Source: a virus (taxonomy: Duplodnaviria; Heunggongvirae; Uroviricota; Caudoviricetes). From it: a DNA stretch of 19,746 bases. Each line of letters starts with the position of its first letter. Position 1 is the first letter of the stretch. Positions 794-13,759 of this stretch are shown here, piece after piece. Position numbers and translations under genes: made by a program. Under the pieces are notes generated by a model. The model worked only from the letters and a program-made list of their open reading frames with translations, did no database searches and had not been told where the DNA came from. The stretch covers positions 1-19,746 of IMG/VR virus record IMGVR_UViG_2671180921_000033; one strand, given 5' to 3'.

Positions 794-931
794 CACAGGG
801 GCAGCAGGCTTGTCATCACCTTATTGCTACTCCTGGCTTCCTGTTCGGAAGTCTCACAAGTCCCATCAGGGTACAGCGACAGTATCAGTCAACACACTAT
901 GTGTGTCAATATAAATTCATATCGAATTCGA

Positions 932-1333: not shown

Positions 1334-1436
1334 AAATCTCTTTGCCTGATAATGACGACTTGTGAACTCCACTACAAACAAAATGATTCTGCTGAACAGG
1401 CAGTTCCGCACTGTGCATTATAACCTGTTAAGCCAA

Positions 1437-1460
1437 CAAAAAAACCCGCTCGGCGGCGGG
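1437..1460 (-). terminator. Rho-independent terminator after the ORF6N antirepressor-like gene
   Basis: Minus strand CCCGC-CGCCGA-GCGGG followed by TTTTTTTG. Confidence 0.55.
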
Positions 1461-1538
1461 TTTAAGCTGTGTGGCGTAGTAACCACTCTTAACAGGATAT
1501 TCAACTTTTTACGATCGTAAAGCGTTCAGGAAAAATTT

Positions 1539-2099
1539 TTAAAGCCGCATCAGTCGTTCCACCAGCTGATCTTTACGGGCAACGATCCAGCCGCGTTGTT
1601 CCAGATAAAATTTGAACCGTTCCAGAGTGCATACCATCGCATCGGCGGGCACTTTTTCCGCGAAGTCGACCTGACCGTGTTTATCGAAGTGGATCAGTAA
1701 TGCGCATCCATCATTTTCGGTGGGGGAGCTTTGTTTTGCTGGTGGCTGTTTCTGGCTGAAATAACAGTCTTCCAGTTTTTCGAACACTTCCCATGCCTGA
1801 TCGGTTTCGAGCATTTTGGCGTGGCGTGCTGCGCCTCGTTCTGTCCAGAGGACGAGGGAGCGGGCGCGTTTTGCAACTGACTTACTATCTGTAAGCCTGT
1901 TCTTGAATTCTCTTAGCTCCGTACCTTCGATTTTAAAAAAATGCTTACCTTCAATAAACCGCTCCCGATTCCGGGTATGGTTCACCTGAATATTTATAGC
2001 CTCAGTACCATATAGCTGAGCAAGTAGTTCGGTAGTGATAACGGGGATCTGGTTGTGGGTGATTGCAGGAAGAGTGTTGACAGAAATTTGAACAGTCAT
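1539..2099 (-). CDS. Phage antirepressor-like protein, ORF6N/KilA-N-type N-terminal domain plus a C-terminal domain shared with the Rha protein at 14908..15462
   Basis: N-terminus PVITTELLAQLYGTEAINIQVNHTRNRERFIEGKHFFKIEGTELREFKN matches the ORF6N-domain pattern. C-terminus LLIHFDKHGQVDFAEKVPADAMVCTLERFKFYLEQRGWIV parallels LVVHFDEHGNIRFTETVPDGALVCTLDTFRFYLEKQGWTLV in the Rha ORF. SD GAGGTCG precedes the ATG. Confidence 0.75.
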   Translation of the reverse strand: MTVQISVNTLPAITHNQIPVITTELLAQLYGTEAINIQVNHTRNRERFIEGKHFFKIEGTELREFKNRLTDSKSVAKRARSLVLWTERGAARHAKMLETDQAWEVFEKLEDCYFSQKQPPAKQSSPTENDGCALLIHFDKHGQVDFAEKVPADAMVCTLERFKFYLEQRGWIVARKDQLVERLMRL

Positions 2100-2260
2100 A
2101 ACGACCTCGCGTTTCGATAATTTTTACCTCACCACCGTCAGGTTCCAATCATCGGGTGGCGAACTGTGCAGGGTTGGAACTACCGGTCGAAACATCCGGC
2201 GCACCTTTCGGTGCCCCCACACAGTCCACCATAAATCGCGAATGTGACTGTGCTTAGCGC

Positions 2261-2283
2261 ATAAAAAAACCGCCAGCGCGGTT
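2261..2283 (-). terminator. tR'-like intrinsic terminator downstream of the late promoter
   Basis: Minus strand AACCGC-GCTG-GCGGTT followed by TTTTTTTA, about 75 nt downstream of the candidate PR' start. Confidence 0.6.
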
Positions 2284-2343
2284 ATGCACCGTTTCGATAT
2301 CCGGGGTTCCAATCCCGACGCCAGATTTTGCTGACGCGTGAGG

Positions 2344-2373
2344 AATATAGCCCCGGACAATGTGTCTGGTCAA
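2344..2373 (-). promoter_or_regulatory. PR'-like late promoter (candidate Q-utilisation region) immediately downstream of the Q gene
   Basis: Minus strand TTGACC - 17 nt - CTATAT starts 5 nt after the Q stop codon. The position is as in lambdoid PR'/qut/tR' modules. Confidence 0.45.
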
Positions 2374-2377
2374 GCAC

Positions 2378-2764
2378 CTACATAATTCGTTCTACGTATC
2401 TGTCCATCTCCAGCCGGATATCAAGCATCATCAACATGCCATCGATAACCCCTTCCGCTTTCTGCAGGCGCTTGCCAATACAGGTATCCGAACACCCATG
2501 CTTTCGTGCCAGTCCCATAAAAGTCATTCCACCTACGTAATAATCCACCAACAAATCGTGCAAATCCTGATTTTTCTTGTTCAACCGGGCCATACAGCCA
2601 CAAATTATCATTGCATCATTATCAGAACACTGAGGACGTGATTTCACTTTCGGCGGGATTAATCCTTTAAAACCAGCAGCGATTGACGCCCATGACACAT
2701 CTTCGTGGTTGTTTGCAGCCCATGCCCCCCACCGCTCCATCACCTGCTGAATATCACGCACCAT
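2378..2764 (-). CDS. Late-gene antiterminator Q (phage antitermination protein Q family)
   Basis: Translation [61 protein letters not shown]...DIRLEMD closely resembles, from memory, the Q homologues of E. coli cryptic prophages (QuuD-type). ATG at 2764; the ORF-track version starts at the GTG at 2773. Confidence 0.75.
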
Positions 2765-3131
2765 CGTTATCACCTGTAATTTCGTAAACCTTCACACCCA
2801 GCCGACCACCAGGAACGACCTGACCGCGCACTATATTGATTTCATCAAACTGCTCGTCGTCTATGAGTAGTCCTGCATGGGTCAGTGCATCCAGTGGTGC
2901 TTTCAACAGATTGTCCAGGTCACGACGGCGCTTATCCGGTGGCTCCACAATCATCTTTATCGCCAGCCTTCCGGACAGGTTTAATTTCAGCCACTGCTGG
3001 CGAACAATTAGCGCCACATCACGGCGATAACGCTTTCCTGCTTCCGAGATGAAATACGTATTGCCATGACGTCGCCAGTAGGTATTCACCGTCGGCGGGT
3101 AAGGCAAAACAAATTCTATGCGTTCAGTCAT
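2754..3131 (-). CDS. rusA: RusA Holliday-junction resolvase
   Basis: Translation [43 protein letters not shown]...[29 protein letters not shown] carries the RusA hallmark motifs (PP-NxYx[11 protein letters not shown]). Its start abuts the DUF968 stop. Confidence 0.8.
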
Positions 3132-4187
3132 TCATGCTTTCCACTTCAGGACACCCGAATTTCTCGCGTGCATTAAAAAACGAATCAGCAACAACAGCTG
3201 GCTGCCGTGTTTTTCTTCAAAATCTTTTACCCCGGCGTGCAGTTCGTTATGACATTTACGGCACAGCGGAATAACAAACAAATCATCAGCCTTTGTTCCC
3301 ATCCCTCCCAGTCCATGACCAATGATGTGATGCGGATCATCTGCCTGATTACCGCACGTCATGCATTTCTGCGTTTTTACCCAGCGCGTGTATACAGGCA
3401 TCTCTTCCCGTTGTGGTTTCTGGCGCTGGAGATACTGAGCCGGAGAATCCGGATCAACGGCAATGCTGACCACCGTCTTTTCCTGTGGCGGGTTTTGCTG
3501 GTGGGCGTGAGGCAGCGGCGCAAGATTTTTTGTGCGCTGCTTCAGTATGCTGGTGGCTGTCTGTTCTCCCGGTATGATGTCGCTTTCGCGGTACACCGAG
3601 CGGATTTTTTCCGCACGCAATCCCAGCGAACGACGCAATACCGCTTCCGGTAGCGCGTCCGCCACCTGATTGCGGACCGCCCACCAGGATAATTCAGCCA
3701 GAGATAATTCACGCTCCTGCGTACCGCTTATTGCGTGACCGATGACGTCAATCATCCATGCTGACAGGTTTTGATGAGCAAGTTGCTCGAGTGATTCGGC
3801 TGTCTGGTCACGCAACTGGTTGTCGCAGTGCCAGCACAACACCATCGCGCCGGTACCGTAACGATGTATGACGGTTTCGCTGTGGTGATAATCGCCGTGT
3901 GGCCACTGGCAGGATTTAATATGGCGCAACAGCCAGTCAGACAATGCGCCAGCGCCGCCAGCAGCACGAATCACCCGTGCGTTACTGAAAAACGGCAGCA
4001 ATGTTTTGTCTTCCACCAGTGGCTGGCGAACGGCGGGAACGACCCCGGACGGCAGATTACGCATGCTTTTCGGTTCAGGCTCCACCAGCACACGCCCCTG
4101 CATAAACAAAGGCATCGCATCAGGACCGGGCCTGAAAAGTACAATCCCCAGGCGGTGAGCAATTTCAGGAGTCACTAATACCCTCAC
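3132..4187 (-). CDS. DUF968-like prophage protein with a C-terminal HNH-like Cys/His motif
   Basis: 351 codons with a GTG start preceded by SD GGAGG. C-terminal CMTCGNQADDPHHIIGHGLGGMGTKADDLFVIPLCRKCHNELH. Size and position next to Q resemble YdfU-type prophage genes, as far as I recall. Confidence 0.55.
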   Translation of the reverse strand: MRVLVTPEIAHRLGIVLFRPGPDAMPLFMQGRVLVEPEPKSMRNLPSGVVPAVRQPLVEDKTLLPFFSNARVIRAAGGAGALSDWLLRHIKSCQWPHGDYHHSETVIHRYGTGAMVLCWHCDNQLRDQTAESLEQLAHQNLSAWMIDVIGHAISGTQERELSLAELSWWAVRNQVADALPEAVLRRSLGLRAEKIRSVYRESDIIPGEQTATSILKQRTKNLAPLPHAHQQNPPQEKTVVSIAVDPDSPAQYLQRQKPQREEMPVYTRWVKTQKCMTCGNQADDPHHIIGHGLGGMGTKADDLFVIPLCRKCHNELHAGVKDFEEKHGSQLLLLIRFLMHARNSGVLKWKA

Positions 4188-4188
4188 G

Positions 4189-4467
4189 TTACCTCCAGAT
4201 CCGTTGCTGGAATGTGCGGGACGGACGCGGTGGGCGCTCGGAGTACGGCAGCCTGACGGAGATTATCCAGTGTCGGAAGTCAAGACTGAGGTCTTTCCTG
4301 ACCTCGCGTCCGCGCCTGCGATAACACTGAATCAGCCACTCGGCCTGTTCTTCAGTGCATGGTGGGTGTTGGTACCAGTCGGTTTTAAATGCGTGAAAAC
4401 GCCGTCCGTGCATGCTGGCAAAGACGGCTGAATTATCAGGATTGTGTAGTCTGGAATTTTGCGCCAT
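4189..4467 (-). CDS. Hypothetical nin-region protein (92 aa)
   Basis: Intact ORF, co-oriented with and separated by 1 nt from the DUF968 gene. No family recognised. Confidence 0.4.
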   Translation of the reverse strand: MAQNSRLHNPDNSAVFASMHGRRFHAFKTDWYQHPPCTEEQAEWLIQCYRRRGREVRKDLSLDFRHWIISVRLPYSERPPRPSRTFQQRIWR

Positions 4468-4587
4468 CGGTTGTCTCTGCTGGCGCAGCAGGTGCCAGTT
4501 GTTCAGACTGGCGTGACAGATTATAACTCATAAAGAATAAAAATGACAAAATCTGCCAAAAAATAAAAATACGAAAAACAAGTTCTG

Positions 4588-4920
4588 TTACGACACCTTC
4601 CTGAAAATTGCCAGCGGTGTCATACCATAGGAAGTTCCTCTCCTCCCAATCATTTCCCGAATACCTTCAAGCATATAATCTATTGCAGATCTGATTTCGT
4701 TAGAAGGAATTTCTGGCTCTGAAACAGTCTCGTCACTTATATCCGGGAGCGCATCTATAACACCGATGACATACCATTCACCACGTATTCTTGAACCATA
4801 CTTTAATGCAAGATTTCCCACATCCAAAGCTAAATCATCAGCCTTGACCGACATCCAGAATATATTTTCTTGATCATCAAGAAGCTCTATCTGTGTAGAG
4901 AACGGGAGTAAAGAAAACAT
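4588..4920 (-). CDS. Hypothetical protein (110 aa), third gene of an AT-rich 3-gene cassette
   Basis: ORF starts 13 nt after the stop of the upstream gene. Acidic protein (MFSLLPFSTQIELLDDQENIFWMSVKADDLALDVGNL...). No family recognised. Confidence 0.5.
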   Translation of the reverse strand: MFSLLPFSTQIELLDDQENIFWMSVKADDLALDVGNLALKYGSRIRGEWYVIGVIDALPDISDETVSEPEIPSNEIRSAIDYMLEGIREMIGRRGTSYGMTPLAIFRKVS

Positions 4921-4933
4921 GTTAGCAGCAATT

Positions 4934-5416
4934 TTAGTATGATAAATTTCTTCTTGAATGTTTTTTTTTCTGATTTGGTGATTTAGTCTGCTTTAGCTCT
5001 TTTCGTTTTGCATCTTTATACATAGGAAAAACATCATGAGCCATTTTCACATCAAATAATTTGATATGCCCTTTTACCATCACCAGACTTCCAATTTCTG
5101 CATTTTCTAAGCTCGTTGCCACCAAGCCTTGTTCGTGCAACTTATCAAAAAAATTTAATGGTAAAGACCATGATGAGTCAAAATGCCGCTCTTGCGTTCT
5201 TGCAAAAGAATCACCCGCATTTTTCCTGGCATTAAATAATGAAACGCCACCTTTAAGTTCATTTAATGAATGCTCAGAACTGGACGAGATTTGTTTTACA
5301 GCATTCAATACTCCCGATGGAAATAATTGCGCAGTGAAGTAACCTACGCGCTCTTTGTCAAGATAAAGGTAATCAAATAGTGAATCTACAGCTTGACAAT
5401 CTTGATCCATTGGCAT
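4934..5416 (-). CDS. Hypothetical protein (about 160 aa), second gene of the AT-rich 3-gene cassette
   Basis: Start ATGCCAATGG preceded by SD AAAGAGGTG, overlapping the upstream small ORF by 44 nt. Lys-rich C-terminal tail. No family recognised. Confidence 0.5.
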   Translation of the reverse strand: MPMDQDCQAVDSLFDYLYLDKERVGYFTAQLFPSGVLNAVKQISSSSEHSLNELKGGVSLFNARKNAGDSFARTQERHFDSSWSLPLNFFDKLHEQGLVATSLENAEIGSLVMVKGHIKLFDVKMAHDVFPMYKDAKRKELKQTKSPNQKKKHSRRNLSY

Positions 5417-5552
5417 GCACCTCTTTGATCCTTGCTTTTTCCTCAGCAATTTTTCTTTGCTTTTCTTCGATTTCATCATACATCAATTGCATTTCAGCGA
5501 TGTCGAACGGCTTTGAACCACTTTTAAGCGATCTCACCAGTTTGCGGATCAT
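5373..5552 (-). CDS. Small hypothetical protein (59 aa), first gene of the AT-rich 3-gene cassette
   Basis: ATG at 5552 preceded by SD AGAGGGGA. Translation MIRKLVRSLKSGSKPFDIAEMQLMYDEIEEKQRKIAEEKARIKEV. Below the ORF-track length cutoff. Confidence 0.35.
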   Translation of the reverse strand: MIRKLVRSLKSGSKPFDIAEMQLMYDEIEEKQRKIAEEKARIKEVHANGSRLSSCRFTI

Positions 5553-5692
5553 TGCGTATCCCCTCTTAAATATCGTTCAAATTATGTTCAAACAAATTCT
5601 CAAACACAACAATGTGATACATCAATGTTTGGGTGCGTTGAGGATGCCTGACACATCAGAGGTGGCGAGGGATTTCTCCCCCGCCAGGTCTC

Positions 5693-5848
5693 TTACTCCT
5701 CAGGTTCGTAAGCTGTGAAGACAGCGACCTCCGTCTGGCCGGTTCGGATTCGTACCTCGCAGAGGTCTTTCCTCGTTACCAGTGCCGTCACAATGACGGT
5801 TAAACAGATGACGATCAGGGCGATTAACATCGCCTTTTGCTGCTTCAT
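5693..5848 (-). CDS. hok: Hok/Gef-family type I toxin
   Basis: Translation MKQQKAMLIALIVICLTVIVTALVTRKDLCEVRIRTGQTEVAVFTAYEPEE (51 aa) has the Hok signature: TM helix then RK-LCE-R-G-EVAAF. SD AAGGAGAAG precedes the ATG. Confidence 0.8.
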   Translation of the reverse strand: MKQQKAMLIALIVICLTVIVTALVTRKDLCEVRIRTGQTEVAVFTAYEPEE

Positions 5849-5894
5849 AGCCTGCTTCTCCTTGCCTTTCGGCACGTAAGAGGCTAACATCCAT
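5700..5894 (-). CDS. mok-like overlapping reading frame (translational coupler for hok)
   Basis: 64-codon frame starting at ATG 5894 and overlapping hok almost entirely, as in hok/mok/sok loci. Start choice within the 107-codon ORF-track frame is uncertain. Confidence 0.35.
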   Translation of the reverse strand: MDVSLLRAERQGEAGYEAAKGDVNRPDRHLFNRHCDGTGNEERPLRGTNPNRPDGGRCLHSLRT

Positions 5895-5965
5895 ATGTCT
5901 AGCATGAAATTGGCCTAAGTTTAATATTAAACGTCTTGCGGGACGCGTAATGTTAACTGGGCTTT
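5895..5965 (+). ncRNA. Possible Sok-like antisense RNA (approximate coordinates)
   Basis: Candidate plus-strand promoter TTGCCT - 17 nt - TAACAT (5862..5890) facing into the hok/mok leader. Ends not defined; inferred from hok/sok architecture. Confidence 0.2.
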
Positions 5966-6245
5966 TCTCTATCTGCCGTTGGTGTTCATGCCCGAGGCAG
6001 ATAGCCTCAAGCACACGCAGCAATTTTACTTAACTATTTTTCCGAAAAATTAATTATTACTAATGCATAGTTTATAAATCACACGATGATATTATAAATC
6101 TAGTGTAAGGGAACATTTAAGTTAAGAATCACATTTTACTAGCCAAAAACATAAAACAGATCTCTTAATAATAAGCAGCTTTTATATAAAAACCACGATG
6201 TGTTTTCATAATAATATGCAGTACCAGCTACTCAGCAATATGAGG

Positions 6246-6764
6246 TTATTCAGTCAAGCTTTTGCGCCCGTACGCACTTCTCAAACTTGCACATGTTTCT
6301 CTAATCCTAACAATTTGCATACAATCAGGTCTTAGAGGTCGGTTGTGAACATCACTATCATATGTCATGGCTTGGCGTAATTCCTTAAACAATTTTGCCT
6401 TATATTTTTCACCACCGGCCCTTTCAATTTCTTTAGCGATAGTAGTTAAACTCTTAACCTCCCTACTCATTTTTGCTAACGCCAGTGTAGGTTCTTTATT
6501 ATTATCTTCAGCCCAGAACTCTAAGGCAAAATCCTCAAGCAACTCCAGTTTTTGTCTAAACTCACCGATCCATTCATTATGAGCATCTTTAATAGCATCT
6601 CCTCTACTTTTTGTGGTTTGGAGATAAGCAATATATGCCGTAATCCCCCATCCAACTAAAACTAAAAACCAAGTTACATACTGATTTTCATCTTTAAACA
6701 AAGAAAAAAACTTACACCAAAAGTCTGCACTCCAAGTACAGACCTGGATACTTGAATTAGCCAT
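6246..6764 (-). CDS. Single-pass membrane protein (172 aa), fourth gene of the STAS/GHKL cassette
   Basis: Hydrophobic helix WFLVLVGWGITAYIAYL near the N-terminus, followed by a charged helical region. Its start overlaps the upstream gene stop as ATGGCTAA. Confidence 0.55.
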   Translation of the reverse strand: MANSSIQVCTWSADFWCKFFSLFKDENQYVTWFLVLVGWGITAYIAYLQTTKSRGDAIKDAHNEWIGEFRQKLELLEDFALEFWAEDNNKEPTLALAKMSREVKSLTTIAKEIERAGGEKYKAKLFKELRQAMTYDSDVHNRPLRPDCMQIVRIRETCASLRSAYGRKSLTE

Positions 6765-7071
6765 GAGATACCTTTATAGCGTCCTCGATATATTCATTTA
6801 TCTCGTCAATTAACTCAGGTTCTTCTTCTGAGATAAATTTAATCCCTTTAACCTTATCAGGACTCACGCCACGCCTAATCAATCCGCCAAAGCACTCCTC
6901 CAAGAAAGAAGAACCATACCCCTCCGTTCCATCAAGGTCTATTGTTAGATCTGGTGAATGTTTAAGCTCTCTTTCTACCCACTCACGAAACTCCTCACCA
7001 GAAGCGGGCCCCAATCTTTTAAAACGAGGTCCTGGGCAAGGATAACGACTGGCTACTTTTATAATTTTCAT
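6757..7071 (-). CDS. Small STAS-like (DUF4325-like) protein, 104 aa
   Basis: ATG at 7071, 1 nt after the GHKL gene stop. Segment DLTIDLDGTEGYGSSFLEECFGGLIRRG resembles the STAS-like core of anti-sigma-antagonist-type proteins. The domain call is by eye. Confidence 0.45.
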   Translation of the reverse strand: MKIIKVASRYPCPGPRFKRLGPASGEEFREWVERELKHSPDLTIDLDGTEGYGSSFLEECFGGLIRRGVSPDKVKGIKFISEEEPELIDEINEYIEDAIKVSHG

Positions 7072-7072
7072 A

Positions 7073-7552
7073 CTACTCAGTTTCCACCTCACAAGGAATT
7101 GTCCATTCAATTATAGTACCATTAACAGAGCTTTTGTAATCTCTAAGCACTTCGTTAATAATGCCAGTTTTCCCTTTGTAAATATAGCGCCCTTTTGATG
7201 AAAAAATCCCCATAAAACCATCACCTATTGAATCGATTACCGATTTGATATCATTCAAGCCTTTACCTCGGTTCAGCTCCCCAGTCCTCGTTTCCTGAAG
7301 TAACGTGGAAGCCTTTATATAAGTAGAATCCTTTACATTTGCTAATGGAACTCTAAGTTTTTTGAAGATGTTCATTAGCACACTTACACCTTGTGTTTTA
7401 GGCAATGTTGAAGGTATTCCCACTCCTTTATCACATATTACCACTGTAAGATTTTTGTCATGTATGCCAGCAAAGGTCCACCACTTAGCTGTTTCGTCAT
7501 CTTCCGTATGCATTAAATCATCAACATAAGCATGCTCGACAGAATTAGACAT
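7073..7552 (-). CDS. GHKL-family ATPase, anti-sigma-factor/serine-kinase-like (159 aa)
   Basis: Bergerat-fold motifs in order: N-box NSVEHAY, G1 VVICDKGVGIP, G2 RGKGLNDI, G3 NGTIIEW. Size similar to RsbW/SpoIIAB-type kinases. Confidence 0.65.
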   Translation of the reverse strand: MSNSVEHAYVDDLMHTEDDETAKWWTFAGIHDKNLTVVICDKGVGIPSTLPKTQGVSVLMNIFKKLRVPLANVKDSTYIKASTLLQETRTGELNRGKGLNDIKSVIDSIGDGFMGIFSSKGRYIYKGKTGIINEVLRDYKSSVNGTIIEWTIPCEVETE

Positions 7553-7556
7553 GGCC

Positions 7557-8240
7557 TCAGTAAAGCCACGGTATAATTTTTTTTGATGATTTTCTTTCTA
7601 ACTCTTTTTTTATTTCCACCATCATTTCTTTTGCTAAAAGAGGCTCAGAACAAGAACCTGATGTATATTTCCAAAAAGTCACATCATCATAACTTTCAGT
7701 TTCTCTTTTAGGTTTCCTTAATAGATCATAGAAACCGACTTGATTCAAAATGCTTTCAATTTTCTTGTCTTTCGGATGTGAAAACCCTATGGCATTTACT
7801 CCAAATTCACTTTTCTTAATAAGCACATCAACTTCAGCGAGAAAAGATAACATAGCAGCTGCACTTATATATTTAGTTGAAGAAAAATCTATATAAACAC
7901 GATTATTCTTCAACACGCAATCGCGTAAATTATTTAAAAATTTATTCATGATTTCAAAATCACGATCGTTGTAATAATTAATAGATATCGGAGCAGAAAA
8001 AACCACCCTTTTATTACTTGTTGTCAACTTTTTCTTCGAGACTCGTAGCTTACGAGTGCGTTTGTAATATTCCAGTTTTCTCTTCGCATTTTCTACTCCT
8101 TCCCAATCCGTGCTTTTCAGAGAATTAAATATCCCCCTCTTCAGTTTCGAAACTTGCCCGCGATAGTTTAGTTTTTGAACTTTTCTTCTTTTTTGCAGAT
8201 TCATAAATATTTTCACATTTGATAACATCGCAGATATCAT
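7557..8240 (-). CDS. Protein with a basic N-terminal region and a STAS-like domain (227 aa), first gene of the cassette
   Basis: Lys/Arg-rich N-terminus (KRRKVQKLNYRGQVSKLKRG...KRTRKLRVSKKKL), then RVYIDFSSTKYISAAAMLSFLAEVDVL...NAIGFSHPKDKKIESILNQVGFYDLL, which resembles a STAS/anti-sigma-antagonist fold. No clear SD, so the start is uncertain. Confidence 0.5.
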   Translation of the reverse strand: MISAMLSNVKIFMNLQKRRKVQKLNYRGQVSKLKRGIFNSLKSTDWEGVENAKRKLEYYKRTRKLRVSKKKLTTSNKRVVFSAPISINYYNDRDFEIMNKFLNNLRDCVLKNNRVYIDFSSTKYISAAAMLSFLAEVDVLIKKSEFGVNAIGFSHPKDKKIESILNQVGFYDLLRKPKRETESYDDVTFWKYTSGSCSEPLLAKEMMVEIKKELERKSSKKIIPWLY

Positions 8241-8476
8241 ATTTCACATGAAAAATTTTTTGTAGCCCCTCCATCAAAGAAAATCGCTGCCTTTATCAAA
8301 AACATTTCGAAATTGTCAGCAACTTAACGTTCCCCCACCCCAACAGTAAAATTGATCCCACTAGCTCAAGTGAAAGTCACCCCGTAACATCCTGTTGATA
8401 CCCAGCGCCTGCGCTTTCGCTCTTACAGCATAACAAGAACGATCGATCCCCCATATGCTTTCTACCGTCAACGTGC

Positions 8477-8938
8477 CTACACACTGACCTGAGTGCCATG
8501 ATTTCCCTCATGCATAACCTGTTCACCGAATACCTCTCGAAAACCATTCTGGTAAAACGCCAGTACGCGCTGCATAGCTTCGCTCCTCCGACACTCGCGA
8601 CAGATTATGTTCAGACGCCTGTCATAGCGGCGTATTTCTCCGTCTGGTAATGAATAAACCAGGTCCGGGTCGCTCTTTTTTTTCACTGCTGCTTTCGACA
8701 TCTTTTTGCGGGCCTTTATCCAGTCCTTACGTGCCTGTTCAGACGGAAATAACCCGTAGCCGGAGTTGTATAAATCGCCACTGGCAACCAGCTCTCTGGC
8801 AAGAACACTCATCAGATACCTTGTCGCACCTGTCTTAGCTTCCAGTTGTCGTAACGTCTCGCGCCCACTCTGGCGCACGAGCTCAACAACCTTCCCCTTA
8901 ATTTTTTCCCGCTCTTCTTGTGTAAATACTTTTGCCAT
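8477..8938 (-). CDS. Hypothetical nin-region phage protein (154 aa)
   Basis: ATG at 8938 preceded by SD GGAGG. Co-oriented with the replication genes. No family recognised. Confidence 0.5.
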   Translation of the reverse strand: MAKVFTQEEREKIKGKVVELVRQSGRETLRQLEAKTGATRYLMSVLARELVASGDLYNSGYGLFPSEQARKDWIKARKKMSKAAVKKKSDPDLVYSLPDGEIRRYDRRLNIICRECRRSEAMQRVLAFYQNGFREVFGEQVMHEGNHGTQVSV

Positions 8939-8953
8939 AAGCGCCTCCGGCAA

Positions 8954-9715
8954 TCACTTTTCCGATGCAACATGGCGGGAAGAATCAGTAATCTGTCGTA
9001 CAATATCCCTGTGCTTGTTCAACTCACGCAGCGCGGCGCAGACACGCTCCCACTTCTGGACATGATTTTTCGCCCGACGCAGTTCGCGGTTTGCCATATG
9101 CAGTGATGGTAAAACCAGGTCATCCGCTCGCGTTTCAGTAAACGATGGCAGCGACTGCACAATGTCCGCCACAGTTTCTGTTTTAATATCTTCCTGTGTT
9201 GCAGCCTCCTGTACTGGTAACGCAACACCTGCGGGCTGAGGAAAGGCCTTACCATCAGTTTCCGCTACCGATGCTGCTTTCGGCTCTGCTGGTAAATTAT
9301 CGCCCGGTATGCAGTAACGAAATTTACCGCCCTGATTTACGCGAATCAGACGACCTTTGCTGATTGCCATTGCCAACGTTGAAGCCACTTTGCGTGATGT
9401 GGTACCAAAAAATGTAGCCAGCTCATCCGCCGTTTGTGGTCCACGTTGTTCAATCGTCGCAGTTAAATCGCTCTCTGAAATTTTCGCGACTGTTGCCGTG
9501 GTAGTTTCTTCCGGCAGTTCTGCCGGCGCTGGCTGTTCCTGCTGAACGTTGTTATCAGCCACACGCCAGGTGTACGCGCTTTTATCAACGAAACCAGCCT
9601 TTTTCAGTTCCCATAGTTCGTTCAGCACTTCTTCACGACTGATATCAAGTCGCGCAGCAAGTTCTATGGATGTGGCTTTTCCCATCGCTTTCAGTGCGTC
9701 AAAAACAGTCTCCAT
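8954..9715 (-). CDS. Hypothetical phage protein, possibly a winged-helix DNA-binding protein (253 aa)
   Basis: ATG at 9715 preceded by SD GGGAGG. Two segments ([26 protein letters not shown] and [29 protein letters not shown]) look like HTH/winged-helix units. Confidence 0.5.
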
Positions 9716-9737
9716 TAAAATTTCCTCCCGGTAAAAA

Positions 9738-10484
9738 TCACTTCGCAATTCCTGGCTGGACGACATTCGGACGCCAGCTCTCCCAGTTAAAATTCACCCA
9801 TCGCCCGCCGTTCATGGTCATGCGGTCCATCACTCGCTCTCCCAGAAGGGTGCTCATCGCGGTATGGTTCAGGTTCGTCAGCATCCCGACACTGCGCATC
9901 GAAGCCGTTCTGCGGTCGACTATCTGGTTCAGAGTGACCTGTTCATTGCGTGTATCACGCTGCATGCCAATCTCATCCAGAACCAGCAGGTCAACGTTGC
10001 ACAATCCCTGCAAAAACTTTTCACCCGAGTTTTTGTTGTCGTAGCTGCCGTGCAACGCCAGCATCACATCAGCCACAGTGATCACAATCACACTCCGCCC
10101 CTTCGCCAGAAGATGGTTGCCGATGGCTGCCGCAAGGTGATTTTTTCCGGTACCCGGCTTACCGCTGAACACGAAATTTGTGCACCTGGTCATAAGTTCG
10201 TCCGCGATGGATTTTGCATGACTCAGCGCGTGGCGTTGCCCGTCGTTCTGCACCCGGTAATTCGCAAACGAACACTTCTGGTGCAACGGCTGGATACCCG
10301 AACGGTTCAGAATTTTTTCCGCATGAATCTTGTTATTCAGGCGATTAATCTCCTCACTACGTTTTCGCCCTTCAGCAAGCCACCACTCGTACCACTCTTC
10401 CCGTGTCCGGTACGGCGCGGTTACATGCTGTGGGGCCAGTCTGCGGATACGTTCAAGAACACCGCTTGCCGCAATATTTTTCAT
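9738..10484 (-). CDS. DnaC-like helicase loader (IstB-like AAA+ ATPase), lambda P equivalent
   Basis: Walker [18 protein letters not shown] and Walker [10 protein letters not shown]. Position immediately downstream of the O-like initiator. Confidence 0.85.
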
Positions 10485-10490
10485 GGTCAG

Positions 10491-11456
10491 TTACCCCCTG
10501 AAGCCTGGCGGAATTTCGGTATCCGGTTCAGAAATGTGATTCACACAACGCTGTGCCGGACCACGTCCCAGACGAATCACCAGCTCATCCCATTTTTCGC
10601 GGAGCTTTGACGGACTCATGATGTTTTTTACCCAGAATGAATCCCGCTGTACCCGACCAAACATTTCGCAAATTTGCCTGTGCGTTCTGCCATCCAGCAT
10701 CCGCATTGTGCGCACGTCATTGGCCCACGCGGTCCAGTTGGGTTCTTTCGGACGCGCGATCTCACCATCATCGCTGGCGGCCTGCTCGTAAAGACTCACG
10801 ATTCGTCCCCAGATCCACTGCGCACACGCCAAATCTTCCTGGCTGCCCCACTGGCGTTTTTTCGCACTGAACACAACCGCGTCAGGGTGTCGGGTTAAAA
10901 AATCCTGTTCAGCCGTCTGCGGGTCCGGTTGCGAAGCGTCCGGACGAGAAGTGTTTTTATTCTCTGTAGTAATCTCTGTTGTATTCTCTGTAAGATCATC
11001 GGGCCATTTTGACCCGATGACATTGGGTCGTTTTGAACCAATGGAGCGTGTCATTTTGGCCTCTTCCATCGTGTCATTTTGACCTGATGGAGCGGCGCAT
11101 TTTGACCTGATGGATTCGCTCGCTTTGCCACCATCTAAAAGCTCGCTCTCGTAATTAATCGTGTAAAAATTAGTCATGTCACGCTTTGATTTATTGAGCT
11201 TTTCGCAACGCAAAAGCCCCAGCGTTTTCAGACTTGCAAATGCGCGTTTTAACGTTGACTCTGACCAGAACGGGAACTGTTCCAGCCATTGTTCCGTTGT
11301 GTTATAAATCCAGCGAACACCGTCACACTCCATGCCGGAATTGGTATCTCTCAACCAGTAATGCAGCTGCTGCAACACGATGGCTTCGTTCAGACCTATT
11401 TTCATCGCCAGCTGCGTGTTTATAACCAGCGGGCGTTCAGCAAAAAGGAGCTTCAT
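10491..11456 (-). CDS. Replication initiator / replisome organiser (lambda O equivalent)
   Basis: N-terminal winged-helix-like segment LNEAIVLQQLHYWLRDTNSG, strong SD GGGGGAAGGG, and an internal iteron array (11001..11115) as in lambda O/ori. Confidence 0.7.
   Translation of the reverse strand: MKLLFAERPLVINTQLAMKIGLNEAIVLQQLHYWLRDTNSGMECDGVRWIYNTTEQWLEQFPFWSESTLKRAFASLKTLGLLRCEKLNKSKRDMTNFYTINYESELLDGGKASESIRSKCAAPSGQNDTMEEAKMTRSIGSKRPNVIGSKWPDDLTENTTEITTENKNTSRPDASQPDPQTAEQDFLTRHPDAVVFSAKKRQWGSQEDLACAQWIWGRIVSLYEQAASDDGEIARPKEPNWTAWANDVRTMRMLDGRTHRQICEMFGRVQRDSFWVKNIMSPSKLREKWDELVIRLGRGPAQRCVNHISEPDTEIPPGFRG
11001..11115. repeat. Iteron array (candidate phage origin) inside the O-like gene
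   Basis: Five copies of CATTTTGACC(C/T)GATGG-like repeats (two degenerate) spaced about 23-24 bp apart from 11005 to 11112, with shorter CTCTGT direct repeats just left of them. Confidence 0.55.
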
Positions 11457-11477
11457 CCCTTCCCCCGGAACACGTTA

Positions 11478-11903
11478 TCAATGCACCACCACGGCATTTC
11501 CTGCCGGACCACCGCGATTCATCTGGTCGAACAGAACGATCGCTGATGCAACGAACTCATCGATATCTTTCACCAGCCGATCCCGTCGCTCGACAATCTC
11601 CCGGTGATACTCCGAACTGTGACTGCGCATTCGGGCCACCAGCGGTGGCGGCATTGCCTTTTCGATCGCTGGTAACAACGCCTGAATTTTTTTAACCGCA
11701 TCAGGGGTGTCTTTCTCCACCCAGCGGAAAATCTTCTGAGTATTGCGAGCCAGGGCTTCTGGGTGTGAATCGTCGTACAGTTCCGGAAACGTCATTCCCA
11801 GCTCAAAATACGCTTTGGTAATCTCTGCAGCCGGAACTTTCTCGCCGTCCGGATGCGCCCAGGCATTCATCGCCATGCGGATGTGTTCATGCTTGATTTT
11901 CAT
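11478..11903 (-). CDS. YdaT-like prophage protein (CII-position gene)
   Basis: Begins MKIKHEHI and ends VVVH, as I recall for Rac YdaT. Start overlaps the upstream gene stop as ATGA. SD GGGAG. Confidence 0.5.
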   Translation of the reverse strand: MKIKHEHIRMAMNAWAHPDGEKVPAAEITKAYFELGMTFPELYDDSHPEALARNTQKIFRWVEKDTPDAVKKIQALLPAIEKAMPPPLVARMRSHSSEYHREIVERRDRLVKDIDEFVASAIVLFDQMNRGGPAGNAVVVH

Positions 11904-12160
11904 GAATCAACTCCCGCAGCTGGTTGTGTGTTAGCCTTAAACTCAGAAGGCAAGCCGTCGGTTGGGTTAGGATAAATATCTGGGCGGATTTCATGCGGGG
12001 TAACTTCCCACTTCATTAGTTGGCATAACGGAATTACCTGCTTTGGGGGAACGCCAAAGCTAAACCATTGCCAAACAGTCTGTTGAGCGACCCCCATATA
12101 ACGACCTATTTCAGCCTGAGTGTATTTCTGCCTAATTTTTTCGCGAGTGCTATCTAGCAT
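11900..12160 (-). CDS. Cro-like / YdaS-like HTH regulator
   Basis: HTH-like segment YTQAEIGRYMGVAQQTVWQWF. Divergent from the repressor gene across the operator region. SD GAGGAGGG. Confidence 0.6.
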   Translation of the reverse strand: MLDSTREKIRQKYTQAEIGRYMGVAQQTVWQWFSFGVPPKQVIPLCQLMKWEVTPHEIRPDIYPNPTDGLPSEFKANTQPAAGVDS

Positions 12161-12196
12161 TTTGCCCTCCTCTAAAAACTATAAGCAAAGCCTACA

Positions 12197-12229
12197 ATAA
12201 AAAACTGTATACGATCAACAGTTTTTTAT
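12197..12229. promoter_or_regulatory. Operator-like inverted repeat in the divergent promoter region
   Basis: Perfect 12-bp arms ATAAAAAACTGT - 9 bp - ACAGTTTTTTAT between the Cro-like and repressor genes. Confidence 0.5.
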
Positions 12230-12268
12230 TGTGATGCTTTTAACAGTATTTACCTGTAAAATTGAATA

Positions 12269-12670
12269 ATGATGAGCGCCCTAGAAGTATCTATGTACAG
12301 AATCAGCAAGCTTCTTCAGGAAACTGGATGGAGCCAGGCTGAGCTTGCCCGTAGAATTGGTGTGACACAACAAACTGTTCAACAATGGGTCAGCGGTAAG
12401 GCTACACCTAAAGCCTCAAGTTTGGATAAACTGGTTGAGGTTTCAGGGCATCCATTGCATTGGTTTTTATTGCCTCCTGAAGAGGGTGAGCAAATTTTCA
12501 CCCCTGACACGATGAAAATTGGTCCTCGCCAACGCGAACTGCTCCAAGCTTTTAGTGCGTTTCCTGAGGAAGACCAAGAAAAAATGCTTCAAGAAATCAA
12601 AGACAAGAAAAAATCAATGGAAGAAACCATTGCTCGGTGGCTGGCTGCACAAAAAAGCCGCCGGGCGTGA
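12269..12670 (+). CDS. XRE-family HTH repressor (PaaR-like; candidate prophage repressor)
   Basis: HTH segment WSQAELARRIGVTQQTVQQWVSGK. First gene of an operon with the antitoxin and toxin below. Start could be the ATG at 12269 or at 12293. Confidence 0.7.
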   Translation: MMSALEVSMYRISKLLQETGWSQAELARRIGVTQQTVQQWVSGKATPKASSLDKLVEVSGHPLHWFLLPPEEGEQIFTPDTMKIGPRQRELLQAFSAFPEEDQEKMLQEIKDKKKSMEETIARWLAAQKSRRA

Positions 12671-12697
12671 CCACAGTACAAGAAGAGGAGTTATGCC

Positions 12698-12889
12698 ATG
12701 GGTACAGCCCTTTCTCCGATAGTTTCAGAATTCGAAACTACCGAACAAGAAAACAGTTACAACGAATGGTTGCGCACTAAAGTAACGTCAAGCCTTGCAG
12801 GCACTCGCCCCGCAATTCCACATGACGAGGTAATGGCTGAAATGGAAAATCTTATTGCTCAAATTGCTGTAACTAACAGGAGCGAGTAA
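12698..12889 (+). CDS. PaaA2-like antitoxin
   Basis: 63 aa, MGTALSPIVSEFETTEQENSYNEWLRTKVTSSLAGTRPAIPHDEV; strong SD AAGAGGAG. Resembles, from memory, the PaaA2 antitoxin of E. coli three-component ParE systems. Confidence 0.65.
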   Translation: MGTALSPIVSEFETTEQENSYNEWLRTKVTSSLAGTRPAIPHDEVMAEMENLIAQIAVTNRSE

Positions 12890-13176
12890 TGTTACCCATT
12901 TTATGGCTACCGTCTGCTCGCGATGATTTGCGTCAGATCATAACTTACATCGCCAAGGAGAACCCACCGGCAGCACGTAGACTAAAAATACGCATTGAAA
13001 CATCGGTATTACCTCTATCTGAGCATCCGTACTTATATCCACCAAGCGAACGGGTTTCTGGATTGAGAGAGATCGTGACCCACCCTAACTACATAATCCT
13101 GTACAGAGTAGCTGCTTCAAGCATTGAGATTGTAAGCGTGACACATTCTCGGCGACAATTTCCCTTCTCTATCTGA
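12889..13176 (+). CDS. ParE/RelE-family toxin
   Basis: 95 aa, MLPILWLPSARDDLRQIITYIAKENPPAARRL...REIVTHPNYIILYRV. Its start overlaps the antitoxin stop by 1 nt (TAATG). Confidence 0.8.
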   Translation: MLPILWLPSARDDLRQIITYIAKENPPAARRLKIRIETSVLPLSEHPYLYPPSERVSGLREIVTHPNYIILYRVAASSIEIVSVTHSRRQFPFSI

Positions 13177-13194
13177 GTTGAACAATTTTCATAC

Positions 13195-13219
13195 TCCCTC
13201 TTTCGAGGGATTTTTTTTT
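13195..13219 (+). terminator. Rho-independent terminator of the repressor-antitoxin-toxin operon
   Basis: TCCCTC-TTTC-GAGGGA followed by nine T residues. Confidence 0.65.
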
Positions 13220-13233
13220 GCCCAAAACAACAA

Positions 13234-13272
13234 TTAAAAACTGTTGACATAAAACAGTTTTTAATTGTAGAT
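13234..13272 (+). promoter_or_regulatory. Second operator-like inverted repeat overlapping a candidate PL-like promoter
   Basis: Perfect 11-bp arms TTAAAAACTGT - 9 bp - ACAGTTTTTAA. TTGACA at 13244..13249 lies inside the repeat, with a weak -10 (GTAGAT/TAGATT) 17-18 nt downstream. Confidence 0.5.
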
Positions 13273-13455
13273 TACATACACCAACCACCCACCCCGCCCC
13301 ACAGAATGTCGGGCAATACTTCGAGTTACCCGGCAGTGGTCAGGGGTTAAGTAGCCAGCCCGAGGCGTAAGAACATGACGGCAGGGTTCAACTTTAATAA
13401 CTATGCAGCAGGTTTTTGTTCCGCTACCCCGGCGTTAAGGGGAAATGAGGTCAGC

Positions 13456-13611
13456 ATGGATACTATCGATCTTGGCAACAGCGAATCTCTGGTATGTGGC
13501 GTGTTCCCCAACCAAGACGGTACGTTCACCGCGATGACGTATACCAAAAGCAAAACGTTTAAAACCGAAGCTGGCGCGCGTCGTTGGGTGGCAAGACATT
13601 CAGGTGAATAA
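13456..13611 (+). CDS. Small early-left protein (51 aa)
   Basis: ATG at 13456 preceded by SD-like AGGGGAAATGAGG. Translation MDTIDLGNSESLVCGVFPNQDGTFTAMTYTKSKTFKTEAGARRWVARHSGE. The ORF-track version is a 78-codon extension. Confidence 0.4.
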   Translation: MDTIDLGNSESLVCGVFPNQDGTFTAMTYTKSKTFKTEAGARRWVARHSGE

Positions 13612-13612
13612 A

Positions 13613-13759
13613 ATGAACGAAACAGAATTAAAACACGTTATCGCTCTACTTCTGGAGGATACAAAACGCCTCCAGCAACTGGAACCAAATGCAGGCACTG
13701 AAGCCCGCATCTTGCTGGCATTGCGCGCTATTGAGTCAGGTCGTGATGATGAAGGTTAA
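13613..13759 (+). CDS. Small early-left protein (48 aa)
   Basis: ATG 2 nt after the previous stop. Translation MNETELKHVIALLLEDTKRLQQLEPNAGTEARILLALRAIESGRDDEG. Below the ORF-track cutoff. Confidence 0.3.
   Translation: MNETELKHVIALLLEDTKRLQQLEPNAGTEARILLALRAIESGRDDEG

What the first reader, a model, noticed from the sequence alone, without database searches (positions are those of the whole stretch)
7073..7560. The GHKL protein starts at its N-box; no hidden N-terminal extension
The N-box (NSVEHAY) lies within the first 10 residues of gene 2, whereas RsbW/SpoIIAB-type kinases carry roughly 40 residues before it. In the gene-2 reading frame a TAG lies 16 codons upstream of the ATG, so a longer form is not available. 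The preceding gene ends 4 nt upstream in another frame, and its C-terminal roughly 50 aa (LLAKEMMVEIKKELERKSS...) lie beyond its STAS-like domain. This could be a minimal kinase, a split gene whose N-terminal helix is supplied by the preceding gene, or a fusion disrupted by a frameshift.
Basis: partly seen in the sequence, partly recalled or inferred. Interest (0 to 1): 0.4.

Follow-up and report, generated by a model that had tools for sequence, protein, structure and literature searches.

The report
Frameshift-split STAS-GHKL kinase gene in prophage
The "kinase that starts at its N-box" is the back half of one ordinary 376-residue kinase gene that an extra A in a run of seven A's has cut in two, so the short form is a broken gene and not a new minimal enzyme.

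Summary
The literal observations hold. On the minus strand, ORF 7073-7552 starts MSNSVEHAY, a TAG lies 16 codons upstream in its frame, and the preceding ORF ends 4 nt upstream.

The 15 codons between that TAG and the ATG read KENHQKKLYRGFTEA. This is the missing half of the N-box helix, including the Glu of ExxxN.

The window differs from 24 complete E. coli genomes by one base over 2.1 kb: coding-strand A8 (window 7577-7584) instead of A7. With A7, the two ORFs form one 376-aa "ATP-binding protein".

Homologues in Enterobacterales, Vibrio and other bacteria are single proteins, mostly 350-390 aa. LYRGFxEAMSNSVEHAY spans the break, and the "start" Met is the invariant internal M218. No homologue starts at the N-box.

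The same allele, with two linked SNPs, occurs in three independent datasets, so it is probably a real inherited mutation. Three other indel alleles hit this tract or a second A7 tract 27 nt upstream. The tracts are not conserved in homologues, so the shift is not programmed.

The intact protein models as basic helices + STAS + SpoIIAB-like GHKL. It heads a conserved prophage cassette with a DUF4325 STAS protein and a one-TM protein. The architecture resembles VapKSC/CapKS, but the function is untested.

As a finding this is ordinary.

The parts
7073..8204 (-). Whole disrupted gene 'K': STAS-GHKL kinase, 376 aa when intact. An alternative upstream ATG lies at 8240.
   Evidence: The intact orthologue WP_223718946.1 is annotated as one CDS in UMNF18 and EcPNK006. 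It is 100% identical to the window except for one base.
7557..8204 (-). It carries basic N-terminal helices, the STAS-like domain and GHKL strand 1 + helix 1, then six out-of-frame residues (IIPWLY) and a stop.
7577..7584 (-). Homopolymer tract 2: coding-strand A8 here, A7 in the intact allele. This is the frameshift site.
   Evidence: It is the only difference from L001 across 6200-8300. A8 also occurs in L004, L009 and L011, and A6 in L010.
7605..7611 (-). Homopolymer tract 1: coding-strand A7, wild type in this window. It is a second indel hot spot 27 nt upstream of tract 2 (tract start to tract start).
   Evidence: A8 in L003, L005, L007 and L012; A6 in L006 and L008.
7553..7597 (-). 15 sense codons upstream of gene 2's ATG in gene 2's frame (KENHQKKLYRGFTEA). 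The last 10, KKLYRGFTEA (7553-7582), are the first half of the N-box helix and include the Glu of ExxxN (E216).
   Evidence: L210, E216 invariant and Y211 nearly invariant (at least 90%) in alignment A1.
7598..7600 (-). TAG stop in gene 2's frame, 16 codons upstream of its ATG. In the intact gene it is out of frame.
7073..7552 (-). It is the GHKL domain from the middle of the N-box helix onward, and its ATG is the invariant internal Met218.
   Evidence: It gets no Pfam hit on its own, whereas the rejoined protein gives weak HATPase_c/HATPase_c_2 hits.
6757..7071 (-). Gene 'S': 104-aa DUF4325 STAS-like protein with the G-Y-G-S54-S55-F-L-E-E motif. It is the presumed kinase substrate.
   Evidence: Pfam PF14213 at 7e-12. 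S55 is invariant and S54 nearly so in 13 cassettes. The best PDB profile hit is Escherichia VapS 9z7o_A at E 0.07, with S54 aligned to the VapS Ser at chain position 66, which I infer to be phospho-site S48 if the crystallised construct carries an 18-residue N-terminal tag.
6246..6764 (-). Gene 'T': 172-aa protein with one hydrophobic helix (about residues 28-50) followed by a helical bundle. It is the presumed effector.
   Evidence: A gene of the same size and position with an N-terminal hydrophobic segment follows S in every cassette examined; sequence similarity to window T was shown only for the closer relatives.

Best explanation
**What it is.** 'Gene 1' and 'gene 2' are the two halves of one gene for a 376-residue STAS-GHKL serine-kinase-like protein (K). 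A +1 insertion in a coding-strand A7 run (now A8, window 7577-7584) cut it just before the N-box helix. This is most simply replication slippage.

**What the break does.**
- Translation from the true start ends six out-of-frame codons later.
- The 159-aa ORF is called only because the invariant internal Met218 is the first ATG after an out-of-frame TAG.
- Neither product contains L210-A217, which includes the ExxxN Glu. The downstream piece also lacks GHKL strand 1, helix 1 and half of the N-box helix.
- The kinase is therefore most likely dead in this strain (inferred).

**Likely function of the intact cassette (inferred from architecture only).** The intact gene heads a conserved three-gene prophage/satellite cassette, K-S-T. 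K would phosphorylate the conserved Ser of the DUF4325 STAS protein S on sensing infection or DNA damage. That would release or activate the one-TM protein T. This is a VapKSC-like kinase-triggered toxin/abortive-infection module. Losing K would leave S and T intact but untriggerable.
For: **The split is a single-base frameshift of one gene.**
- The window differs by a single base from 24 complete E. coli genomes. All 24 matches span 2100 nt rather than 2101. A7 was checked directly in two of them.
- Those genomes annotate one 1131-nt CDS.
- Gene 2's frame reads KKLYRGFTEA immediately upstream of the ATG.

**The fused form is the conserved form.**
- One search found 125 homologues. The full-length ones are single proteins of about 350-390 aa.
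- L210, E216, M218, N220, V222-Y226, D258, G260, G262 and R312-G315 are invariant.
- The family has 3264 representatives at 50% identity. The best 150 all span both the STAS and GHKL regions.

**Fold.**
- The AF2 model places the N-box helix at 207-226, with strand 179-183 and helix 188-201 before it.
- Weak RsbW/SpoIIAB model hits put K residue 215 at model positions 43-48.

**The mutation is real and inherited.**
- The window is 100% identical to GCA_001606755.1.
- The same A8 plus two linked SNPs occurs in ERR2777517 and SRR18965774.
- S and T are untouched.

**The cassette is conserved and sits in mobile elements.**
- K-S-T is conserved in all loci examined.
- It lies next to prophage repressors, in a P4-like satellite and in Marinobacter phage AS1.
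- S has an invariant Ser.
- The VapKSC/CapKS precedent is PMC13373217.
Against: - A homopolymer +1 is also the classic sequencing error, and I could not see reads.
- One of the other indel alleles (L008) carries three homopolymer deletions and is probably read error.
- The AF2 model is weak exactly around the junction, with pLDDT about 48-62 for residues 181-230.
- Nothing here tests kinase activity, S phosphorylation, T toxicity or phage defence.
- PADLOC has no model for any of the three proteins.
- Similarity of S to VapS is below significance (E 0.07).
- A trickle of full-length K from transcriptional slippage on A8 cannot be excluded.
Confidence: 0.9

Rival explanations
1. Sequencing or assembly error: the living strain has A7 and an intact gene, and the extra A is a homopolymer miscall in this draft assembly.
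For: - The change is a 1-nt length change in a homopolymer.
- Another contig with a split gene (L008) has three homopolymer deletions within 2.4 kb, typical of read error.
- All 24 complete genomes are intact.
Against: - The same A8 with the same two linked SNPs is found in three independent datasets: GCA_001606755.1, ERR2777517 and SRR18965774.
- The 17.5 kb shared with L004 shows normal-length neighbouring genes and no other frameshifts.
- RefSeq holds both fragments as proteins (WP_244498983.1 and WP_244498984.1).
Confidence: 0.1
2. Contingency switch or recoding: the two A7 tracts act as a reversible on/off switch for the cassette, or the A8 allele still makes full-length K by transcriptional slippage or +1 ribosomal frameshifting.
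For: - There are four different indel alleles, all at the two A7 tracts that sit 27 nt apart in the STAS-GHKL linker. They lie on at least five backgrounds.
- Runs of 8-9 A can slip during transcription and are hypermutable in replication (PMC1088944).
- Switching off K would be the safe way to disarm a toxin module.
Against: - The tracts are not conserved in position or length in homologues. The same residues are coded by AAAAAG, AGAAGG and similar.
- These are simply the two longest homopolymers in an AT-rich (35% GC), Lys-rich gene.
- Only 13 contigs carry the split ORF, against more than 460 with the intact protein.
- A7/A8 is shorter than typical A/T contingency tracts.
- Rejoining the frames needs a +1 shift, not the -1 shift favoured at A_AAA_AAA.
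- No stimulatory structure was looked for or seen.
Confidence: 0.06
3. Genuine two-gene arrangement: a stand-alone STAS protein plus a minimal GHKL that starts at the N-box, either working alone or with gene 1's C-terminal helix supplied in trans.
For: - The ORFs are adjacent (4 nt apart), and a GAGG lies just upstream of the ATG.
- A stand-alone short GHKL does exist in a sister cassette in Vibrio.
Against: - Among the full-length family members and the best 150 representatives, none is split or starts at the N-box.
- The Vibrio short form still has about 45 residues, including ExxxN, before the N-box His-Ala-Tyr.
- Invariant L210 and E216 and nearly invariant Y211 are encoded by neither ORF.
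- The GAGG is only 2 nt from the ATG, and it is simply the Thr-Glu-Ala codons of the intact gene.
- The rest of the 2.1 kb is 100% identical to intact alleles, so the split is recent and not an evolved arrangement.
Confidence: 0.03

Closest known systems
VapKSC (VapK STAS-GHKL kinase / VapS STAS antitoxin / VapC PIN toxin), Chambers et al., EMBO J 2026 (PMC13373217)
   Same: - It is a three-gene operon in the same order: a fused STAS-GHKL kinase, then a small single-domain STAS protein with a conserved Ser at the start of helix 2, then a third protein.
- It is found in mobile or defence contexts.
- The S-family profile's best PDB hit is VapS (9z7o_A), with S54 aligned to the VapS Ser that I infer to be phospho-site S48, assuming an 18-residue tag on the crystallised construct.
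   Different: - The third gene here is a one-TM helical-bundle protein, not a PIN nuclease.
- K has an extra basic two-helix N-terminus of about 60 aa.
- Sequence similarity to VapS is not significant (E 0.07), and no VapK sequence was available to compare.
- ssDNA activation and phage protection are untested.
- In this window the kinase gene is broken.
CapK/CapS (HTH-STAS-GHKL kinase + STAS-wHTH repressor), same paper
   Same: - The kinase has the same domain order and size: N-terminal helical module, STAS, then GHKL.
- The active-site Asn is at about 218-220 in both.
- The kinase gene is followed immediately by a STAS protein with a conserved Ser at about position 54.
   Different: - S here is 104 aa with no wHTH DNA-binding domain.
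- The cassette is not placed upstream of CBASS, Bub or other immune operons.
- The N-terminal helices were not shown to be an HTH.
SpoIIAB/RsbW anti-sigma kinases with SpoIIAA/RsbV STAS antagonists
   Same: - The N-box ExxxN, the G1 box DxGxG and a Ser-bearing STAS partner are all present.
   Different: - Kinase and STAS are fused in one chain, and there is also a second, separate STAS protein.
- There is no sigma-factor gene in the cassette.
- NCBIfam RsbW and SpoIIAB models score 13 bits against cut-offs of 135-145.
Homopolymer-slippage pseudogenes, and frameshifted genes rescued by polymerase slippage (Baranov et al. 2005, PMC1088944)
   Same: - The change is a single-base length change in an A run inside a coding region, which splits an ORF.
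- There are recurrent independent indels at the same tracts.
   Different: - The tract is only 7-8 nt and is not conserved among homologues.
- There is no evidence of rescue.

Membership tests
GHKL (Bergerat-fold) ATPase/kinase superfamily | N-box ExxxN on helix 2 | tested here: met
   E216 and N220 are invariant in 31 homologues. In this window, E216 lies upstream of gene 2's ATG, so the 159-aa ORF alone does not meet this feature.
GHKL (Bergerat-fold) ATPase/kinase superfamily | G1 box DxGxG and G2-type glycine loop | tested here: met
   D258, G260 and G262 (CDKGVGIP) and R312-G313-K314-G315 are invariant.
GHKL (Bergerat-fold) ATPase/kinase superfamily | Fold match to solved GHKL domains | tested here: met
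   [not shown]
GHKL (Bergerat-fold) ATPase/kinase superfamily | Pfam HATPase_c / HATPase_c_2 at the gathering score | tested here: not met
   The rejoined protein scores 15.8 and 15.4 bits against cut-offs of 27.4 and 26.4, and gene 2 alone gets no hit. Several family members carry precomputed PF13581/PF02518 hits.
SpoIIAB/RsbW anti-sigma factor kinases | Partner STAS protein with a phospho-acceptor Ser encoded next to the kinase | tested here: met
   A DUF4325 gene follows directly downstream. S55 is invariant and S54 nearly invariant.
SpoIIAB/RsbW anti-sigma factor kinases | Cognate sigma-factor gene in the operon, and binding to it | tested here: not met
   No sigma-factor gene appears in any of the cassettes examined. 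Binding itself is not testable here.
SpoIIAB/RsbW anti-sigma factor kinases | Equivalog-level sequence match | tested here: not met
   13.4 and 13.5 bits against cut-offs of 145 and 135.
VapKSC / CapKS kinase-STAS systems (PMC13373217) | Kinase with STAS and GHKL domains fused in one chain | tested here: met
   [not shown]
VapKSC / CapKS kinase-STAS systems (PMC13373217) | Immediately followed by a STAS protein with an absolutely conserved Ser/Thr | tested here: met
VapKSC / CapKS kinase-STAS systems (PMC13373217) | Sequence homology to VapS/CapS/VapK/CapK | tested here: inconclusive
   The S profile hits VapS 9z7o_A as the best PDB match, but at E 0.07. The K profile finds nothing in the PDB.
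   Gene T is a one-TM helical bundle with no PIN hit. S is 104 aa and consists of the STAS domain only.
VapKSC / CapKS kinase-STAS systems (PMC13373217) | ssDNA-activated phosphorylation of S; protection against phage | not testable with these tools
   This needs kinase assays and plaque assays.
Programmed frameshift / phase-variable contingency locus | Slippery tract conserved among homologues, with both frames maintained | tested here: not met
   The tracts are absent or differently placed in 11 homologous genes. All full-length homologues are single ORFs.
Programmed frameshift / phase-variable contingency locus | High frequency of off-state alleles or mixed populations | tested here: inconclusive
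   13 contigs carry the split ORF and more than 460 carry the intact protein. There are four allele types at two tracts. No read-level population data were available.
Known anti-phage systems in PADLOC-DB v2.0.0 | HMM match of any cassette protein | tested here: not met
   No hit for the two fragments of K (gene 1, gene 2) or for S at E up to 1; the rejoined K construct gave only a chance-level match (BrxHI E 0.04, 10.2 bits), and T only a chance-level match (Cas1 E 0.026).

The most novel reading that the evidence does not exclude
The K-S-T cassette is an uncharacterised, widespread prophage defence module. In it, a CapK/VapK-like kinase phosphorylates a DUF4325 STAS protein to unleash a membrane effector. 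The family has more than 3000 clusters at 50% identity. The paired A7 tracts in the E. coli kinase gene would serve as a reversible slippage switch, or allow low-level transcriptional rescue, that lets lysogens turn the suicide trigger off and on.
Probability: 0.1. Interest if true: 0.55.

Novelty: new variant of a known kind. Interest (0 to 1): 0.22.

Why it matters
**For annotation.**
- Two 'hypothetical protein' records (WP_244498983.1 and WP_244498984.1) are fragments of one gene and should be flagged as a frameshifted pseudogene.
- A GHKL that 'starts at its N-box' should not be taken as evidence for a minimal kinase.

**For biology.** The interest lies in the intact cassette rather than in the split.
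- It combines a fused STAS-GHKL kinase, a DUF4325 STAS protein and a one-TM protein.
- It is conserved across Gammaproteobacteria and reaches Arcobacter and a Marinobacter phage.
- It usually sits beside the prophage repressor or in satellite hot spots.
- It would extend the recently described kinase-STAS control logic (CapKS/VapKSC) to a membrane effector.
- Recurrent loss of only the kinase gene fits that logic. Disarming the trigger is harmless, whereas losing the STAS partner might not be.

All functional statements here are inference.

Tried and rejected
- **Minimal kinase or natural split.** Rejected. No homologue is short, and the Vibrio stand-alone GHKL keeps its N-terminal 45 residues.
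- **Programmed frameshift.** Rejected. The tracts are not conserved.
- **Known defence system.** PADLOC gave nothing for any cassette protein. NCBIfam gave only sub-threshold RsbW/SpoIIAB hits. Pfam recognises only DUF4325.
- **PDB by sequence.** The K profile found nothing at E up to 1. S as a single sequence gave only chance hits. The S profile gave VapS at E 0.07.
- **Phage collection by DNA.** No match. By protein, one hit only, Marinobacter phage AS1.
- **Promoter/terminator scan of 6000-8700.** Counts were no different from shuffles.
- **Literature.** DUF4325 appears in three unrelated papers. No paper in the library describes this cassette. The CapK paper does not mention a membrane-protein variant.
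Full report
**1. What is in the sequence**

All genes of interest are on the minus strand. There are four of them:
- ORF 7557..8240 is 227 aa. The RefSeq-type start is the Met at 8204.
- ORF 7073..7552 is 159 aa and begins MSNSVEHAY.
- ORF 6757..7071 is 104 aa. It matches DUF4325, a STAS-like domain, at Pfam 7e-12.
- ORF 6246..6764 is 172 aa with one hydrophobic helix.

- The N-box residues fall within the first nine residues of the 159-aa ORF.
- A TAG (7598-7600) lies 16 codons upstream of the ATG in that frame.
- The upstream ORF stops at 7557-7559, 4 nt before the ATG.

In gene 2's own frame they read KENHQKKLYRGFTEA. The frame therefore reads ...KKLYRGFT-E-A-M-S-N-SVEHAY. This is a complete GHKL N-box (ExxxN) whose Glu lies upstream of the supposed start codon.

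The gene 1 frame and the gene 2 frame meet in a coding-strand run of eight A's. On the window's + strand this is T8 at 7577-7584.

**2. It is one gene with a one-base insertion**

The 2.1-kb stretch 6200-8300 occurs in 24 of 5426 complete E. coli genomes at 99.9% identity or better. In every case the match spans 2100 nt rather than 2101.

Direct comparison with two of these genomes (UMNF18, EcPNK006) gives three results:
- UMNF18 differs from the window only in that run, A7 instead of A8. EcPNK006 has the same A7 plus at least one substitution.
- Both genomes annotate a single 1131-nt CDS, 'ATP-binding protein' WP_223718946.1 or WP_250269058.1, of 376 aa.
- The DUF4325 gene and the 172-aa gene follow it in both.

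With A7 the reading is ...ERKSSKK-LYRGFTEAMSNSVEHAY... without a break.

**3. The fused form is the conserved form**

- A search of 5.8 billion proteins found 125 homologues. They come from Escherichia, Cronobacter, Leclercia, Plesiomonas, Citrobacter, Pantoea, Serratia, Proteus, Yersinia, Vibrio, Aeromonas, Pseudoalteromonas and others.
- The full-length ones are single proteins of about 350-390 aa. The few shorter hits are labelled partial or come from short contigs.
- In an alignment of 31 of them, down to 29% identity, the segment across the window's break is the most conserved part of the protein. L210, E216, M218, N220 and V222-E223-H224-A225-Y226 are invariant.
- Gene 2's 'start' is therefore the invariant internal Met218.
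- An exhaustive profile search of 1.84 billion cluster representatives found 3264 family members at E up to 1e-3, and 854 at E up to 1e-30. The best 150 all match across both the STAS and GHKL regions, and none starts at the N-box.
- A second cassette in Vibrio fluvialis has a stand-alone 193-aa GHKL. It is related to K residues 208-369 (E 5e-7) and still has about 45 residues, including ExxxN, ahead of its H-H-A-Y.

**4. Structure**

An AlphaFold2 model of the intact protein has mean pLDDT 74 and pTM 0.73. It is weak, at pLDDT 48-62, over residues 181-230. The model shows:
- two long basic helices (3-49);
- an alpha/beta domain (66-161);
- a second alpha/beta domain beginning with strand 179-183, helix 188-201 and helix 207-226, the last being the N-box helix.

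- Next come the RsbW domain of Rv1364c, B. subtilis RsbW, UsfX and SiaB.

Weak NCBIfam hits place K residue 215 at position 48 of RsbW and position 43 of SpoIIAB. They are K residues ~170-217. In this window, those up to K209 are encoded by 'gene 1' and L210-A217 by neither ORF.

The 159-aa ORF starts in the middle of the N-box helix and lacks strand 1, helix 1 and the catalytic Glu. The upstream product ends ...SSKK-IIPWLY*. Residues L210-A217 are thus in neither polypeptide.

I infer that the kinase is inactive and that the two pieces cannot reconstitute it.

**5. Real mutation or sequencing error?**

- The window is 100% identical over 17,552 nt to contig LOCS01000154.1 of assembly GCA_001606755.1.
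- The 159-aa product is on record for 13 contigs. The intact protein is on more than 460 contigs.
- Comparison of ten of those contigs with the intact allele is informative:

| Contigs | Change relative to the intact allele | Reading |
|---|---|---|
| Window / L004, L009 (ERR2777517), L011 (SRR18965774) | tract-2 A8 plus the same two SNPs | one inherited haplotype in three independent datasets |
| L003, L005 | tract-1 A8 plus a non-homopolymer +G in gene T | a second lineage with two broken genes |
| L007, L012 | tract-1 A8 on a different background | a further event |
| L006 | tract-1 A6 | a further event |
| L010 | tract-2 A6 | a further event |
| L008 | three homopolymer deletions | probably read error |

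- Tract 1 is a second A7 run (window 7605-7611), starting 27 nt upstream of tract 2.
- Neighbouring genes in the window's contig have normal lengths.

I conclude, with about 0.8-0.9 confidence, that the window's A8 is a genuine, recent, inherited slippage mutation. The rest of the 2.1 kb, including S and T, is unchanged. Read-level confirmation is still needed.

**6. Programmed or not?**

- In 11 homologous genes the equivalent codons are not homopolymeric, or the runs lie elsewhere.
- These genes are 24-42% GC and Lys-rich, so A runs are scattered.
- In the E. coli gene, the two A7 runs are simply its longest homopolymers.
- Rejoining the frames in the A8 allele needs a +1 shift, or a transcript with one A fewer.
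- Runs of nine A/T are where selection against slippage becomes evident in many bacteria. Eight A's can be productive in some IS elements, and such runs are also hypermutable in replication (PMC1088944).

A little transcriptional rescue, or reversion, is therefore possible but unsupported. I give the switch/recoding idea about 6%.

**7. What the intact thing probably does (inference)**

The order K (350-390 aa), then S (DUF4325, about 105-115 aa), then T (130-198 aa, with an N-terminal TM helix and a helical bundle) is kept in every locus examined.

These loci are of four kinds:
- **Mobile islands and satellites:** a Vibrio fluvialis island and a Klebsiella/Raoultella P4-like satellite.
- **Repressor-adjacent prophage sites:** P2-like prophages of Citrobacter, Erwinia and Providencia, and a repressor-like gene in Arcobacter. 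In Citrobacter and Erwinia an integrase gene follows directly; in Providencia and Arcobacter only the upstream repressor-like ORF was seen, and no family search was run on the L027-L029 neighbours.
- **Other chromosomal loci:** Amphritea, Psychromonas, Pseudoalteromonas, Pantoea and a Thiohalomonadaceae MAG.
- **A bona fide phage:** Marinobacter phage AS1, directly downstream of the putative repressor.

In this window the cassette sits in a Rac-like prophage, between the replication genes and hokD.

Features of the three proteins:
- S carries G-(Y/F)-G-S-S-F-L-E-E, with S55 invariant and S54 nearly so.
- The S profile's best PDB hit is Escherichia VapS (9z7o_A, E 0.07, not significant). S54 aligns with the VapS Ser at chain position 66, which I infer to be phospho-site Ser48 assuming an 18-residue tag.
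- K keeps all GHKL catalytic motifs.
- T models as a long TM-containing helix plus a four-helix bundle. Its fold matches are only generic.

The closest characterised systems are CapK/CapS and VapKSC (Chambers et al., EMBO J 2026, PMC13373217). There, an (HTH-)STAS-GHKL kinase activated by ssDNA phosphorylates a conserved Ser of an adjacent STAS protein. In VapKSC this releases a PIN toxin and gives about 2 logs of phage protection.

By analogy, K would phosphorylate S to release or activate T at the membrane. Differences and gaps:
- The third gene is not a PIN nuclease.
- S has no wHTH.
- Homology to VapK/CapK could not be tested.
- No PADLOC model matches.
- The paper does not mention such a variant.

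I put about 0.5 on this mechanism.

**8. Verdict**

- The headline interpretation (a GHKL that begins at its N-box with no extension) is wrong.
- As a finding this is an ordinary homopolymer-slippage pseudogene, so interest is low.
- The underlying intact cassette is an uncharacterised variant of the kinase-STAS control systems and may deserve its own look.

Noticed in passing
L013/L014 8102-9455 (Vibrio fluvialis): Directly after the K-S-T cassette lies a second, 'short' cassette. It has a stand-alone 193-aa GHKL (no STAS domain, N-box at about residues 48-58), another DUF4325 protein (110 aa) and a 147-aa one-TM protein. This suggests a wider GHKL-DUF4325-TM family with and without the fused STAS domain.
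   Followed up: partly
L030 3444-5370 (Marinobacter phage AS1, MK088078.1, genes AS1_41/40/39); also L019, L027, L028, L029: The cassette repeatedly sits immediately downstream of the prophage CI-type repressor. In AS1 it is divergent from cro. In the P2-like prophages L019 and L028 it lies between the repressor and the integrase; in L027 and L029 only an upstream repressor-like ORF was seen. This is the position occupied by rexAB-type exclusion genes in lambda, and it hints at expression in the lysogen.
   Followed up: partly
window 7605-7611 and 7577-7584; L003-L012: Two A7 tracts whose starts are 27 nt apart in the STAS-GHKL linker collect four different indel alleles (+1 or -1 at either tract) across public assemblies. 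L003 and L005 additionally carry a non-homopolymer +G that truncates gene T to 151 aa.
   Followed up: yes
window 5693-5905 (-) and 5843-6016 (-): A hok-type toxin ORF (annotated hokD in related genomes) with its sok antisense RNA (Rfam RF01794, 95 bits) lies just downstream of the cassette.
   Followed up: no
window 2152-2350 (-) and 14662-14850 (+): There are two isrK + C4 antisense RNA modules (Rfam RF01394, RF01695, RF03163) in opposite orientation about 12 kb apart. These are P1/P7-type antirepressor-control RNAs, so this prophage region has duplicated immunity-control elements.
   Followed up: no
window 387-537 (-): Two adjacent tRNA genes lie near the left end of the window (Rfam RF00005, 65 and 74 bits).
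   Followed up: no
window 1-19746 vs E. coli complete genomes: No complete E. coli genome covers more than 56% of the window in one place. The prophage is a mosaic, and only the 2.1-kb cassette is shared at 99.9% or better, by 24 genomes from pigs, chickens, mice, cattle, humans and river water.
   Followed up: partly
K residues 1-60 (window about 8025-8204, -): The N-terminal ~60 residues of K are very basic (K/R-rich) and model as two long helices. They occupy the place of CapK's HTH and could bind nucleic acid. This was not tested.
   Followed up: no
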